Shown one piece after another: positions 4,861 through 64,000 of a DNA stretch of 64,000 nucleotides. The notes beneath the pieces are model-generated. The model saw only the letters and a program-made list of their open reading frames with translations. It was not told the DNA's origin and made no database searches. The position numbers and the translations under genes are program-made. Where the stretch lies: assembly GCA_030295235.1 (NCBI GenBank), contig AP026124.1, forward strand, positions 1,674,001 to 1,738,000. Direction: 5' to 3'. How positions within the stretch are numbered: the first letter of the stretch is position 1; each line of letters begins with the position of its first letter. The DNA is from Fistulifera solaris (taxonomy: Eukaryota).

Positions 4861-5976
4861 AACAAGCTTGTATAACGGACGAAGATTTATAGGTAGCACT
4901 CTCTAGCTAGAGAGAGAGTCGGGAAAAAATCGATTGATTCATGACTGAAAAGCAGTCGCGGATAAAGGTTGTATACACATTCGGCTAGAGTAAAGTCGGA
5001 AGTCAATGTTGATTGACAAGTTTTATCGACGTTACAAATCGCTTGGTATACAGCAAGTGCTGTCTGGAGTAAATGGACCTTAATACAAAACAAAGAATCT
5101 TGACAAGTTTGCAGAACGGATGAAAGTTAGGTAGCAGTCTGGTTCGAAAGAGTATTGATTCATGACACAAATCCAGTCGTGGTAATGGTGATAGAACACT
5201 TCAGTCATCTAGCTAGAAAATACGGAAGACAACGAATCACAAGTTTTATCGAAGTTACGAGTTGATACTTGTATTTCAATTACTGCCTCAAAGATTTGAC
5301 AGTAATGAAAGCCACTTTGATCTCGACAAGCTTGCAGAACAGATGAATGTCAGATAGCAGTCTGGCTCGGAAGAATATTGATTCACTACTCAAATGCAGT
5401 CGTGTCGAAAAACGGACGACACTTTCGGCGCATAGTAAATACGGAAGAAAACAAGTCACAAGTTTTGTCGACGTTACGAATCGTTTCTCGCAATTCCGGA
5501 AAATCTGGAAGACTTCTCGGTGATACAGAAATTCTGTGGATGGTCCAGAAATTCTGGACCGTCGGTGTTTGGGTCATACCTGGTACAGAGGAATCTTTGG
5601 AGGTTCCACAAATTCTGGAATCGATGTTTTGGGTCATAGATAAGATCTTTGGAAGTTCCAAATAATCTGGAATCGTTTTTTTGTCGTTCAGAAATTCTGA
5701 GGACATTCCGGAAAATCTGGAAGACTTCTCGGTCATGCAGAAATTCTGTGGATGGTCCAGAAATTCTGGACCATCGGTGTTTGGGTCATACCTGGTACAG
5801 AGGAATCTTTGGAGGTTCCAGAAATTCTGGAATCGATGTTTTGGGTATAGCTGGATTGTAAATTGTACGTAGTAACTAAAACCAATTTGTCCTGACAAGC
5901 ATACAGGACGGATGAAGGTTAAGAAGCAGTATGGCTCGGCAGAATACTTGTTCATGACTGGAATCCAGTCGTGGTA
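4861..5976. repeat. Degenerate ~223-bp tandem repeat (about 3.5 units) interrupted by a minisatellite block
   Basis: The anchor (G/A)ACAAG..(T/G)CAGAACGGATGAA...GCAGTCTGG...TTGATTCATGAC...CAGTCGTG recurs at 4861, 5102, 5325 and 5894. Confidence 0.75.
5492..5850. repeat. Near-identical direct duplication (212-bp period) built of CAGAAATTCTG(G) subrepeats
   Basis: TTCCGGAAAATCTGGAAGACTTCTCGG...GAATCGATGTTTTGGGT starts at 5494 and again at 5706. Confidence 0.9.
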
Positions 5977-14368: not shown

Positions 14369-14961
14369 CGAAAAATTTCTTTGCTCGCTTTCCACTTGAA
14401 ATTGCAAGCGCGCTACGGGAGTCTTGTTGTGATCATGATGTTACATTTTTGAATCATCATGGATTGCCAAAATGTGAGCTCAACGCTCGTCGCACGAAAG
14501 AGATCATCAGTACGGGAGGACGTTAAAATTCTGCCTCCCAGTACAAGATTCCACGTAGCGTCTACGACGAGGCAGAATTTTAACACCATTCCCTGTCGTA
14601 TCAACACACAAAATATTATTATACTCCGTACTCTGTAGTCTGTAGTGAAAATTTATAGTTTGAAAACATATCGATCCAATAAGGTTTTGAGTAAAGAAGA
14701 GCAACGGAGTACTCCGTAACAGGTATACTTGTAAACCTTACCTGGTTGCGCATGAATCATCTTCATCATGAGTCCTTAAAGTTTAGGCGGACTCCAATCA
14801 TTCGCAAACCTTTAGCAATATTTCGCTGGAAAGAAGATACGAGTCGACCATCTAGGGTGTAATTATAATCGTTGACATGAATTTTATTCTCTGCATCATA
14901 GCCATTTCGACACCTACCTTTCCGTCGCTTAAAATCGCAATGCTACACTTTGGAATCATGT

Positions 14962-17649: not shown

Positions 17650-18940
17650 CTCATAAGATACGAAGCCCTCGCTTCACACGATTGTCGAGCAAAATTTGCG
17701 GATTGGAAATGACTCTAGAGCCTAAGAATTTGGAAACTTCCTGGACGACTACCAGGTACTTGTACCATGTCGTATTGTTTTCGAGACAAAAACTGTTTGA
17801 TTCTTGACTCCGTATCGTATTGACCACCCATATGACACATAATGACCACTGGGCCACTTCTAGGTTCTAGTTCTAGTTTCTTGGTAAAGTACACCAATAG
17901 AGCGAGTACACATTCGCGAGCGAACAGCGATGGCTCAAAGCATTTTTTCCTTTTCAAGTCGTACACTAGGTCTCTAGGTCGTAGTTCGAAAACCCTGCTT
18001 ACTCGTAGAAACCAGAAGCTAGCAAGCTAGAGAAGAGAAAAGCTGGAAGACAAGTAAGCGATCACTAGTCTAACCACTAAGGCATAGAAAATCATAGATA
18101 ACCTCCCTGGCGTCTGTCGTCTCTAAAAAAGACTCTTGAGTCCTTTCCAATCCTTTTTAACGTCGTCTCTCGTTATAGCTATAGGCTATAGGCGTTACGT
18201 TTTACATGGCTCGGGGCTCGTGGGGAACTCCTTTCTAGATTTTGACTCTCTTTTCGGGCTTGTCATTTTAGATTCAAGCTTTACCCTGGAACGGTACCAG
18301 GTGTACCTCTCTACGTTCTCTATTCTCTATTGTCTCTCACTCTTCTCACCCTAGCCCGGGACTCCAACACTCAAAAAGGCCCAAATAATCGAGAGAATTC
18401 TTCGTTTTAAGTCATAAGAACAAAGGAAATTCTTTTCCGTTTCCAGTCCCATAGTCAATGACAAAACACACAATGAGCAATGACCCTTTCCATGACCCAT
18501 GACAACAGTGCTCACTGCTCATTTCTCTGCCAACGGCCAACAGCCGGTCTTCTTTTAGCTTCAAACTAGCTTCCCCAGCGAAATTTCTTAGGAAATACAT
18601 AGGTAAAAGGAGCGTGATCATAATACAGGAACTGCAACAATGATGATTATGAGACGCTTGCTCCTTGCTCCTCTGGAATTCTAGTCGTGCATTGTGCTAA
18701 ATGGGCTATGGGCTGTGGTGGCTGTGGCAGGCTGTGACTACCTGGTACCTGGTATGCCTGTGCCCTGTGCAGGATACCGCCACATCTTCTTCAGTATTTC
18801 TTACGGAGTAGGCTCTAGTTGGCGCTTAACCGACTGCCCACAAAATTAACTTGAACAAAAAGACTCACAAGAAATTTCATTCGACTGAGAAAGCCGGGCA
18901 AAAGCTGTGAGAAATAGCATGCGTTCAATAGCCTATCAAG

Positions 18941-20805: not shown

Positions 20806-21408
20806 TTTATTTCTCTAATCACTCTGTAAATGGCGAAATTCAGCGCCTACAAGATGTTTGAGCGAGTTTTACTCAGCGAAGACAAGCAATTGAAGTTCGA
20901 CGCACACGGGAAACAAAGCATCGAGAAGTGAAACCACAGCACAGTAAGGTTGGGGACCTCACCACAAGAGCTACTACACGTTACACGTGATAATCATCCG
21001 GGTACCCCTTTGTCGATAAATTTCCGTACGAGAGCAACGTCAACGCTACGTAGACATTCGAAGCGTTGCATCTTTCATGCCTTTTACGTATTGGAAACCA
21101 GTTTGATGTCGATTAATCATTTACTGGAACGAAGCATCAAGGTTGGGAATGCGATGAGGGCCACAGAGAGACGGACTATCGCAACAAATTACACCGGGAA
21201 AACTTTGCCGCCGTACACAGCGTACTAGAAACGTTAAACCAAGATGAAGTTGTGGACTGGTATCTGGTACTTGATTCAAGCTATCCTCTGAGCTCCGAGA
21301 GGCTGTCTTGGGTAAGGTTTTTGGTGAACATACACTTTTGTGAAAAGAGCGACAGAAACAGATCCTACAAGCTAGAAACAAGAGAAAGCCCCTTCCAGTT
21401 CGATTCGC

Positions 21409-27269: not shown

Positions 27270-27411
27270 GGGAATTGCCCTGCAAAAGTGAACTTCGTCA
27301 TTTTCTCAACCTCTCGACCTCTCGGTTCACTTTTTGCGACGAAAGACGTTATGGGGGCATGGCGCGTGTACTCCAAATGCGAGTGTACCGGTACCGGTAC
27401 GTATGCGCCCA

Positions 27412-27660
27412 TCAAAATACCAAATGCCCACCGTTTCTGGACACGTCAAAATACCAAACCCCCAGATTTTCTGGACACGTCAAAAATACCGAACGCCAAG
27501 ATTTTCTGGAGACGTTAAAATACCAATCCCCAGATTTTCTGGAGACGCCGTCAAAACACCACATGCCCTGATTTTCTGGCACAAAACTCCTCATCCCAGA
27601 TTTTCTGCCTACCACGTGAAAGCACCCCATTCACAGATTTTCTGCGTACGTGAAAAAACC
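27412..27660. repeat. Minisatellite, about 7 units of 34-36 bp (TCAAAATACCAAACCCCAGATTTTCTGGACACG)
   Basis: Units start at about 27412, 27446, 27480, 27515, 27551, 27583 and 27617, and diverge toward the right. Confidence 0.9.
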
Positions 27661-35646: not shown

Positions 35647-36444
35647 TTTGCCAGATGCCTATTTCGTAATATAATGCACCGGCAACTAATAAATTGATAA
35701 CAACAATAATGACCGGACAGTCGACAACGAAATCTCCCATCGCCCCCGTCCGCATTATTTTTTTCAAATCGAAGGGGACGCGTGACGGCAGAATGCGTCT
35801 GTTTGCATTCTCCCTCTATGGAACCGGTACTGAAATCGTTAACAATCCGTAAACGGTTTAGAGCTTATTAGACAAAGCTGCGTGACATCTTTTGTTCCAT
35901 TTTCTAGAGTTCTGTGTAGCACTACGCTAAAATGTACAATAGCGCCGTCCACAGTTGCCTTTTAAACTTAGACATATAAAGACTATCAATAGGATAGTGA
36001 CCATAAATATATTCATACATGTATAAATAGGCACATTTTCTTGGACTTCCTTTTCAAATTTTGGTTTTAACAAACTTTTCGAATTACGAAGCGACACAAG
36101 CACAGCCTATGACGGAATAATCTAGCTACAGAGATACCAGGTAAAGCTAGTAAGGCTTAATTTACAATTATTTACAACAAACGTTGACGGCAAACTGAGA
36201 AGCAATGGTTAGCAACAGGAGGATGGGAAACCATCACGCATATTAAAGTTGTGACCTATGACGCTGCTACTAATGTAACAGGCCCGAAATGTAGTTTGTC
36301 GTCAAGTTATTGCCGATTAAATATCCGTCGTGAGTCACGATAGCTCATTATTTTCTTTCAGTCCGCTCCTCCGACTTTTCCTTGCTAGTCTAAGACGTAT
36401 AAGAACAAGCCTTTGGTATTCAGCCACTCCGCCATTCGCTAGCG

Positions 36445-36728
36445 GAACCGTAACTGCTTCATCAATGCCAGACGACTATACCTTAAATTTTTAACCTGAA
36501 CCGTAACTGCTCCAAAAAAGCCAGACGACTGTAGCTTGAATTTTTAACCTGAACCGTACCTGGTAACTGCTCCAAAAAAACCAGACGACAATACCTTGAA
36601 TTTTTAACCTGAACCGTAACTGCTCCAAAAAAAGATACGGAGTAGACGACAATACCTGGTACCCTGAATTTTTAACCTGAACCCGAACCGTAACTGCTCC
36701 AAAAAGCCAGACGACTAGACCTTAAATA
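36445..36728. repeat. 53-bp tandem repeat, 5 units, some carrying 7-bp insertions
   Basis: GAACCGTAACTGCTCCAAAAAAGCCAGACGACTATACCTTGAATTTTTAACCT units start at 36445, 36498, 36551, 36611 and 36679/36685. Confidence 0.95.
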
Positions 36729-36838
36729 ACTTATACGCGAAGCAACGTGCAACAACACAAAAGTTTTGACCCTTTCTCAGGCAAAGCATTTGATCATTTG
36801 CGTTCATCAACGAGCAAACCACTTTCATTGTCTGATCC

Positions 36839-37268
36839 ATGTCACTGCCGATAGAAACGCCTAGCGTGAAGGTCACGTATTGGATCAACGGCGAGCAAAC
36901 CGAACAAAGAACATGGGATGGAAGCAACACGCCTCACGCCGTCGTGGGTCTGCTTGCGGGACAAGATGCTGCTGAGAGGGTACGATATAAAAAGTTATAT
37001 TTAGTATAAAATAATCTCGCTTTTCTAACCTTTTTTTGTATGAAAACCGAATCAGCCAGAGCCAGGTGAATTTCGCTACAGCGGACGCCATGATGGCGGT
37101 CTGTTGCCAGCCCCCAAAGAAGGAGGACCAATGGCGTTAATGATAGGATGTGTACAAGAGGCAAAGAAAGCGAATGATGAATACTTAACTAGTGTAATAG
37201 AAAAGGAGAAAGACGAAATTCCAACTAAAAAAGTCAAAGCACGACTCCTGAATGGCTGCGCAAAATGA
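36839..37268 (+). CDS. Small two-exon protein (117 aa), Gon7-like candidate KEOPS/EKC subunit; absent from the ORF track
   Basis: Exon 1 36839-36979; intron 36980-37055 (GTACGA...CTAAC...TCAG); exon 2 37056-37268. Translation: MSLPIETPSVKVTYWINGEQTEQRTWDGSNTPHAVVGLLAGQDAAERPEPGEFRYSGRHDGGLLPAPKEGGPMALMIGCVQEAKKANDEYLTSVIEKEKDEIPTKKVKARLLNGCAK. Confidence 0.7.
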
Positions 37269-63482: not shown

Positions 63483-64000
63483 GTGGAGATAGATAGCTGA
63501 ATATCATATAAATCATTGTAGTACCAGCCGAATGGTACAAAGACATGGAAGAAATTCCACTGATAAATACGACGATGACGATGAGCAAGCATTGCGGTGC
63601 GCGATGCGATGTGTCAAGCATGAATTTAAATTTAGCAAGCCCTTTAAGATTCCGATGATTCATGAGTCAACGATGAGTACTTGTACCGGTACTGTACCGG
63701 TATCTGGTACAAAGTATGTACCGTAAGATTATCTAGGTTGCCCCTACATCAATAAATTTCCTACGGCGGCCACATGAAAACGGCGTAGACGTTCCAACTT
63801 TCCAATATATTTCATCATGCTTTGTGCTCGAAAAACGTCGCTCATTGTTAATCACTAAACAAGTAAATTCCTGGGTACATTGATCAAAGTAATAGTGATA
63901 TTGGTGTTCTGCAGACCGGATTTTTGCTGTAGTCGAATTATACAACATCCGGGGTGCCCTCGGCGGCCAGGAAAAAACTGCGTAAGGTTTCCAAGCGCTG

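What the first reader, a model, noticed from the sequence alone, without database searches (positions are those of the whole stretch)
36445..36728. Filled and empty sites side by side: exact 7-bp TA-duplicating insertions inside a 53-bp tandem array
Seen directly: units 1-2 are 53 bp, unit 3 is 60 bp and unit 4 is 68 bp. Unit 3 has GAACCGTA[CCTGGTA]ACTGC where the others have GAACCGTAACTGC. Unit 4 has CAATA[CCTGGTA]CC where unit 3 has CAATACC, and also GATA[CGGAGTA]GACG. Three separate events each converted a TA into TA-(5 nt)-TA within about 110 bp, using two different 5-mers. Established: Tc1/mariner/pogo-type elements duplicate TA and leave short TA-x-TA footprints on excision. Inference: the array records repeated visits by at least two DNA transposon families, or by an unknown TA-targeted micro-insertion process, and supplies the ancestral empty-site control for the window-wide motif excess.
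Basis: partly seen in the sequence, partly recalled or inferred. Interest (0 to 1): 0.8.

Follow-up and report, generated by a model that had tools for sequence, protein, structure and literature searches.

The report
Mariner excision scars in diatom repeat
The 7-base insertions in this short tandem repeat are real and are most likely scars left when mariner-type jumping genes cut themselves out; jumping genes whose ends spell both scar words sit elsewhere in the same diatom genome, which carries thousands of such scars.

Summary
The array and its three 7-bp insertions are real, but only site 1 has an exact empty counterpart. Site 3 needs one extra substitution; site 2 has no TA in any other unit. 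The host is an allopolyploid diatom (Fistulifera solaris or very close). TACCWGGTA occurs 4,372 times genome-wide against 329 for the reversed control. Between homeologous chromosomes both words resolve mostly as filled versus empty TA (8 of 10 resolved sites; controls 13 of 622). I found TA-type DD39D mariner-like families whose ends spell the inserts. Family A (ends CCA…TGG; 10 paired copies; TA duplication shown at empty sites) gives CCAGG/CCTGG, CCAG/CTGG and CCGG, all enriched. Families B and C (ends CTCC…GGAG) give CTCCG/CGGAG. Best reading: excision footprints of two transposon groups. No locus shows element and scar as alleles, and an unseen CCAG-ended donor is not excluded. The scan noted the TACCWGGTA scars before on other DNA of this genome (e1-7531050) and one DD39D copy (e1-7505220). 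New here are the candidate donors. The word is published only as an unexplained promoter motif in the papers searched.

The parts
36445..36497 (+). Array unit 1, 53 bp, empty at all three sites
36498..36550 (+). Array unit 2, 53 bp, empty
36551..36610 (+). Array unit 3, 60 bp, carries site 1
36557..36565 (.). Site 1: TA-CCTGG-TA, exact 7-bp gain at a TA; inferred family A footprint (CC + TGG)
   Evidence: donor ends
36611..36678 (+). Array unit 4, 68 bp (53 + 7 + 7 + one extra A)
   Evidence: contig of X1
36636..36644 (.). Site 2: TA-CGGAG-TA, 7-bp gain; pre-existing TA not seen in other units; inferred footprint of a CTCC-ended element (family B or C)
   Evidence: donor ends
36653..36661 (.). 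Site 3: TA-CCTGG-TA, 7-bp gain at a TA with one neighbouring T/C difference
36679..36684 (+). 6-bp tandem duplication GAACCC between units 4 and 5; not a TA scar
36685..36728 (+). Array unit 5, partial, empty
36135..36143 (.). A further TACCAGGTA 310 bp upstream, in the same unalignable block
36104..36763 (.). 660-bp block holding the array; the homeologous chromosome (G000:C1) has 100 unrelated bases here

Best explanation
The inserts are excision footprints of IS630/Tc1/mariner (ITm) transposons of the DD39D type. Step 1 (shown): family A elements insert at TA and duplicate it. Step 2 (established for Tc1/mariner, inferred here): on excision the transposase cuts a few bases inside each element end, so each flank keeps its TA plus a short single-stranded piece of the element end. 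Step 3 (inferred): end-joining fuses the stubs. Family A stubs (CCA on both sides) give mostly 3+2 bases, TA-CCAGG-TA or its reverse complement, and less often 3+1 (CCAG/CTGG) or 2+2 (CCGG). CTCC-ended elements give TA-CTCCG-TA or TA-CGGAG-TA, as 4+1 bases (family B or C) or as the 5 terminal bases of family C. Each scar adds a TA, so scars stack. The array recorded two CCWGG events and one CGGAG event after its units had duplicated. Odds: footprints of ITm elements 0.82; family A or close kin as the CCWGG donor about 0.65; B/C-type elements as the CGGAG donor about 0.75.
For: Genome count 4,372 versus 329 reversed control. Homeolog test on 224 kb of C2 and 240 kb of C1: CCWGG 5 empty-TA, 1 shared with change, 0 shared exact, of 38 (20 unresolved, 12 unaligned); CTCCG/CGGAG 3 empty, 1 shared, of 23 (19 unresolved or unaligned); other TA-N5-TA 13 empty, 609 shared, of 1,095; Fisher p 1.5e-11 (shared controls are counted from both sides, so p is overstated). 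Further exact filled units in another satellite at C1:1840340 and at C13 versus C14. Family A: ends TA|CCATTCGGGTC…GACCCGAATGG|TA, 22 exact ends = 10 pairs + 2 single, 4-13 mismatches between copies over 1.1-1.9 kb, D246 and D286 39 residues apart, single TA at the empty homeologous site of the C13 copy and in intact copies of the small hairpin repeat that hosts the C9 copy. Spectrum in 824 kb: 3+2 74/2.5 expected, 3+1 53/17.3, 2+2 42/6.1; words needing a fourth family A base or both full stubs are not enriched (CCATG 5/3.9, CCATGG 0/0.6), nor is CCTG/CAGG (13/9.9). Five metagenomic relatives of family A with clear TA-flanked ends begin CCT (36 of 80 loci examined), which under the 3+2 rule gives the same 9-mer. 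Family B: C31:501517-503593, CTCCC ends (left end reads CACCC); family C: C18:151171-152701, CTCCG…CGGAG. Plant DD39D elements leave 1-4 terminal bases between two TAs (PMC9632168, PMC1925063; passages).
Against: No locus was seen with the element in one allele and the scar in the other. About 4,000 excess CCWGG scars stand against roughly a dozen family A copies, and the one long copy found is frameshifted; B and C are single decayed copies among the 13 matches. Family A's 3+2 join needs an A:A mismatch or loss of one base, with no microhomology, and differs from the 4+1 rule that fits family B. Most motif sites could not be resolved between homeologs (51 of 61). Enriched words CTTG/CAAG (57/23.5) and CTACG/CGTAG (19/2.5) have no donor among the families found. 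In rice, exact scars were rare: 8 perfect among 94 excisions (PMC4423477, passages), so this precision is itself unexplained.
Confidence: 0.8

Rival explanations
1. The scars are transposon footprints, but CCWGG comes from an unseen or extinct element with CCAG(G)…(C)CTGG ends, cut 4 or 5 bases inside, with a central mismatch as in Sleeping Beauty's CAG/CTG scar.
For: One 4+1 rule would then cover both words; CCAG/CTGG would be the 4+0 product. The donor search was limited: Pfam family searches were insensitive (family B scores only E 0.026 on DDE_3, and was missed), and pogo was tested only by DDE_1 (whose control also rang nowhere).
Against: No such element in 464 kb screened for TA-flanked TIRs, among the 13 matches, among 12 SPDLxPxD/E-pattern loci or among the relatives' ends. 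The matching 4+0 word for CTCC ends is not enriched (TACTCCTA 9/10.4). Family A explains three enriched words at once.
Confidence: 0.1
2. A non-transposon process inserts fixed short words at TA steps (a repair polymerase with a fixed template, or integration of tiny clipped element ends), with no element ever resident at these sites.
For: Thousands of scars against few elements; high precision; 16 of 74 CCWGG sites are stacked on another scar.
Against: The inserted letters match the ends of TA-duplicating elements in the same genome and stop matching where a 3-base stub would end. Re-use of a scar's TA is reported for Stowaway (PMC1925063, passages). I know of no such enzyme (own knowledge).
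Confidence: 0.06
3. The words are transcription-factor sites made by slippage or fold-back from local sequence and kept by selection; the array insertions are chance indels.
For: CCWGGTA, MCCTGGTA and GGAGKA are listed as promoter motifs with subgenome bias in F. solaris (PMC5935921 Table S4 rows). 14 of 18 window sites lie outside frames of 200 aa or more. Site 3 is a quasi-palindrome that fold-back could make.
Against: None of the 38 CCWGG sites was scored as exactly shared between homeologs, against 260 of 1,095 control words. The same 7 bases appear in unrelated flanks that cannot template them. Absence from coding DNA is expected for 7-bp frameshifts.
Confidence: 0.03
4. Assembly or sequencing artefact.
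For: Site 1 is not covered by a listed read contig; run X1 may not be independent.
Against: Sites 2 and 3 lie in a contig with no other letters; the same words recur as clean indels between chromosomes.
Confidence: 0.01

Closest known systems
Excision footprints of plant DD39D mariner-like elements and Stowaway MITEs (Osmar5, Ppmar2, Triticeae Stowaway; PMC9632168, PMC1925063, PMC4561436; passages read)
   Same: TA kept on both sides with 1-4 terminal bases of the element between; CTCC ends (families B, C); repeated use of one TA.
   Different: Here one or two exact words dominate and number in the thousands; family A has CCA ends, not CTCC, and about 85 extra residues between the first two catalytic aspartates.
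Canonical Sleeping Beauty / Tc1 footprints TACAGTA, TACTGTA, TACATA (bioRxiv 10.1101/659086; passages read)
   Same: A pair of reverse-complementary scars from staggered cuts and end-joining at a duplicated TA.
   Different: Five inserted bases, not two or three; the CCWGG word needs bases from both ends of family A; no Tc1-type transposase was found.
PlantMar family (PMC7325037; passages read)
   Same: DD39D spacing, short TIRs, 2-3 kb, TA target; family B's best relatives include plant DUF7769 proteins at 50-57% identity.
   Different: That paper lists plant and oomycete hosts. Family A is only about 26% identical to family B in short stretches; among the 120 relatives listed nearly all are unnamed or 'hypothetical', one from Nitzschia inconspicua.
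Published promoter motifs: CCWGGTA and GGAGKA in F. solaris (PMC5935921, Table S4 rows), TACCGGTA and TACATGTA in Phytophthora infestans (PMC3597505, passage), TACGGAGTA in Ustilaginoidea virens (PMC8344781, passage)
   Same: The same or analogous TA-C…G-TA words, enriched upstream of genes.
   Different: They are reported as candidate binding sites; the passages found do not link them to transposon excision. Only the diatom case was tested here.

Membership tests
ITm (Tc1/mariner) excision footprint | Empty site has one TA, filled site has two TAs around a short insert | tested here: met
   Site 1; homeolog pairs. Not shown for site 2.
ITm (Tc1/mariner) excision footprint | Insert consists of terminal bases of a TA-duplicating element of the same genome | tested here: met
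   CCA+GG / CC+TGG from family A; CTCC+G / C+GGAG from families B, C
ITm (Tc1/mariner) excision footprint | Element and scar seen as alleles of one locus, or scar made in an excision assay | tested here: inconclusive
   Homeologous DNA located for 4 family A copies: C13/C14 clean empty TA; C23/C24 aligned but diverged at the site; C1/C2 and C34/C35 unalignable at the site; no scar seen.
ITm superfamily (family A element) | DDD/E triad with Tc1/mariner-type motifs | tested here: met
   DEKW…DNAGGH…SPETNMLD; D246 and D286 invariant in 34 aligned sequences; Pfam DDE_3 only E 0.003
ITm superfamily (family A element) | Terminal inverted repeats and TA target duplication | tested here: met
   About 30-bp TIR, TA at both ends; single TA at empty sites
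PlantMar / Stowaway-mobilising DD39D | 39 residues between second and third D | tested here: met
   Family A D246-D286; family B D197-D237. Family C is too decayed to count with confidence.
PlantMar / Stowaway-mobilising DD39D | TIR begins CTCC (Stowaway consensus CTCCCTCCRT, PMC1925063) | tested here: not met
   Not met for family A (CCATTC; relatives CCTTTC), so A is not filed as PlantMar. Met for B, and in the first four bases for C.
PlantMar / Stowaway-mobilising DD39D | Falls inside the PlantMar clade on a tree | not tested
   No tree was built.
Tc1 DD34E / mariner DD34D / pogo as donor | Transposase of that type in the genome | tested here: inconclusive
   No match for DDE_1, DDE_3, Transposase_1 or the SPDLxPxD/E pattern, but these searches also missed families A-C.
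hAT-type hairpin footprints | Insert is a palindromic copy of the flank and varies with the flank | tested here: not met
   The same insert in unrelated flanks; only site 3 could be read as fold-back.

The most novel reading that the evidence does not exclude
A little-described DD39D-like clade with conserved CC(A/T) ends and an enlarged catalytic domain leaves a fixed 3+2 scar. Its past bursts wrote thousands of identical words into diatom promoters, unequally in the two subgenomes, so the subgenome-biased 'promoter motif' CCWGGTA is a transposon scar, some copies of which now affect homoeolog expression; analogous TA-C…G-TA motifs in oomycetes and fungi arose the same way.
Probability: 0.25. 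Interest if true: 0.72.

Novelty: new variant of a known kind. Interest (0 to 1): 0.5.

Why it matters
Footprints are usually seen one locus at a time. Here they are a genome-wide, countable record (about 4,000 excess sites of one word) of transposons that are now nearly gone, which allows dating of bursts against the subgenome split: at one site a CCAGG scar private to C13 sits on a CGGAG scar shared with C14. It offers a plain origin for motifs published as candidate regulatory sites, and a named, testable donor family. The mechanism class itself is long known.

Tried and rejected
Pfam searches of the genome for DDE_1, DDE_3, Transposase_1 and DUF7769 found nothing; these negatives proved uninformative, because families A-C exist. 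The rice Stowaway end TACTCCCTCCG is not enriched (13 versus 15 control). A TA-flanked TIR screen of 464 kb found no long TIR pair beginning CCAG or CTCC. Three large one-sided blocks inspected held satellites and unrelated inverted repeats. The SPDLxPxD/E pattern gave 12 loci, none matching the DD39D profile or reading as a transposase. Single-protein scan of metagenome contigs found no relative; the alignment scan did. PDB search with the family A protein gave nothing significant. Homeologous sites were not located for the C1:2587243, C9:1067081, C23:550849, C30, C36, family B, family C and C37-array loci in the stretches fetched. A profile search of the whole genome could not be run, so further ITm families may be missed. 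Paper searches found no paper treating these 9-mers as footprints; subscription journals and bioRxiv supplements were not visible, and the Osmar5 yeast paper was seen only as cited by others.

Full report
Observation. The array is as described: units of 53, 53, 60 and 68 bp from 36445, a 6-bp GAACCC, and a partial fifth unit. A second, unfilled array of the same unit lies on G000:C37. Site 1 is an exact TA to TA-CCTGG-TA change. Site 3 fits the same change with one neighbouring T/C difference, though another 7-bp insertion explains it without substitution. Site 2 is a 7-bp gain reading TA-CGGAG-TA, but none of the other six aligned units has a TA there, so its empty state is inferred. Both words are far above chance in the window: 11 versus 0.16 and 7 versus 0.19. 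A contig of run X1 matches across sites 2 and 3; site 1 is not covered by a listed piece, and X1 may not be independent.

Setting. The window is gene-dense eukaryotic DNA with PsbP, PPR, Sel1 and MYND genes, at G000:C2:1674001-1738000 in a 51.7-Mb assembly. A homeologous chromosome, C1, is mostly 80-90% identical. A transposase from this genome is 100% identical over 79% of the query to a Fistulifera solaris protein, a known allopolyploid diatom (PMC5935921, passages). The array lies in a 660-bp block with no counterpart on C1, about 100 bp before a transcribed stretch with a GT..AG intron at 36979-37054.

The words are insertions. TACCWGGTA occurs 4,372 times in the genome against 329 for the reversed pattern. 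I aligned 224 kb of C2 with 240 kb of C1. A strict test scored, of 38 CCWGG sites, 5 as empty TA in the homeolog, 1 as shared with a change, 0 as exactly shared, 20 unresolved and 12 unaligned. Of 23 CTCCG/CGGAG sites, 3 were empty (one of them doubtful), 1 shared and 19 unresolved or unaligned. Of 1,095 other TA-N5-TA words, 13 were empty and 609 shared (Fisher p 1.5e-11, overstated because shared controls count twice). Six-base TA-CCAG-TA / TA-CTGG-TA indels occur as well (3 of 37 clean 6-bp indels). A satellite at C1:1840340 shows another exactly filled unit.

Donors. Pfam family searches of the genome were blank. An earlier scan note (e1-7505220) said a DD39D element exists here, so I searched with a recalled DD39D catalytic motif and got one hit: family B, C31:501517-503593, frameshifted, with a C-terminal Znf_SCAND3 domain and Stowaway-type CTCCC ends flanked by TA. 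Its protein found 13 matches. Nine of these belong to eight copies of family A: seven deletion forms of about 2.03 kb (one interrupted by a 5.9-kb insert) and one 2,746-bp frameshifted long form, all over 99% alike, with ends TA|CCATTCGGGTC…GACCCGAATGG|TA. The end pattern gives 22 exact hits, 10 pairs and 2 singles, including 787-bp MITE-like forms; two further 790-bp relatives differ by one base in the pattern. TA duplication is shown: the C13 copy has a clean single-TA empty site on C14, and the C9 MITE sits in a small hairpin repeat whose intact copies have one TA. One match is family C, C18:151171-152701, decayed, with TIRs of about 57 bp running CTCCG…CGGAG, TA on the right and AA on the left. 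The remaining two matches are one decayed family B relative on C34 with no ends found.

Fit of ends to scars. In 824 kb held, words built from at most three bases of each family A end are enriched: CCA+GG 74/2.5 expected, CCA+G 53/17.3, CC+GG 42/6.1. Words needing a fourth base (CCATG 5/3.9), both full stubs (0/0.6) or the other one-base deletion of CCWGG (CCTG/CAGG 13/9.9) are not. For CTCC ends only CTCC+G is enriched (40/3.7). Relatives of family A in metagenomes have TA-flanked ends beginning CCTTTC in the 5 loci with a clear TA-flanked TIR, of 36 examined out of 80; two others showed TIRs without that form. CCT ends would give the same 9-mer under a 3+2 join. Plant DD39D transposases leave one to four terminal bases between two TAs (PMC9632168, PMC1925063, PMC4561436; passages); Sleeping Beauty leaves TACAGTA/TACTGTA mainly through end-joining (bioRxiv 10.1101/659086; passages).

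Mechanism. Shown: TA-targeted insertion by family A; fixed 7-bp gains at TA; letter match between inserts and element ends. Inferred: staggered cuts 3 bases inside family A ends and 4 or 5 inside CTCC ends, end-joining of the stubs, and re-targeting of the new TAs (16 of 74 CCWGG sites are stacked on another scar). At C13/C14 a private CCAGG scar sits on a shared CGGAG scar, which suggests for that one site that CGGAG activity began before the subgenomes split and CCWGG activity came later, in keeping with decayed B/C and young A copies.

Against. No element/scar allele pair was seen. Scars outnumber family A copies several hundred to one, and no intact transposase frame was found. The 3+2 join lacks microhomology. 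An unseen CCAG-ended donor cannot be excluded, since the genome could be searched only twelve times and not by profile. CTTG/CAAG and CTACG/CGTAG are enriched without a known donor. Exact scars were rare in rice (PMC4423477, passages).

Prior knowledge. CCWGGTA, MCCTGGTA and GGAGKA are rows of Table S4 of PMC5935921, as biased promoter motifs with no factor assigned in those rows. Similar words are reported as motifs in Phytophthora (PMC3597505) and Ustilaginoidea (PMC8344781), one passage each. Seven searches found no paper calling these 9-mers footprints; the library lacks most subscription journals. Scan notes already proposed the footprint reading in this genome (e1-7531050) and in other diatoms (e1-7565046, e1-7565380), the listed text naming no donor; family A had no look-alike in the notes.

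Verdict. A real feature and most likely a known mechanism at unusual scale and precision, now tied to candidate donor families. New variant of a known kind; interest 0.5.

Noticed in passing
L071 / G000:C34:572948-575693: Family A transposase has DD39D spacing but about 85 extra residues between the first two aspartates, CC(A/T)TTC ends and 194 relatives at E<=0.001, nearly all unnamed among those listed; it may be an undescribed ITm clade.
   Followed up: partly
window 5577-5797: Two copies of a CCAGAATTTCTGG-type repeat unit both carry TACCTGGTA where related units on C1 (about 1927043-1928081) read a single TA: a scar made before the unit duplicated.
   Followed up: partly
window 63677-63725, 18739-18754, 27386-27405: Stacks of TA-bounded words (CTTG, CCGG, CTG, CCTGG) sharing their TAs; likely repeated scars at one spot.
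   Followed up: no
C1/C2 alignment: About ten of the 23 clean 7-bp indels are plain tandem duplications of unrelated 7-mers (judged by eye), a second 7-bp process like that of scan note e1-7529114.
   Followed up: no
window 14524-14582; L056, L077, C1:1948597: A 55-bp hairpin repeat (AAAATTCTGCCTC…GAGGCAGAATTTT) recurs at many loci and hosts a family A MITE on C9.
   Followed up: partly
L079 / G000:C13 about 665600-671470: A 5.9-kb insert with long inverted ends (GGGAGACTTCCG…CGGAAGTCTCCC) and a CCHC zinc-knuckle-like frame interrupts a family A copy; not classified.
   Followed up: no
L075, L076, L091 (C17:580531, C24:88659, C18:487109): Further TA-flanked ends beginning CCATTCG(G/A)GTC but diverging after 12 bases; possibly other families mobilised by family A-type enzymes.
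   Followed up: no
G000:C1:1810112-1810583: A 470-bp element with inverted arms over 100 bp inside a 4.2-kb C1-only block that also holds a satellite of about 200 bp.
   Followed up: no
window 20990-21100 and 27412-27579: High-copy repeats (depth far above background in run X1).
   Followed up: no
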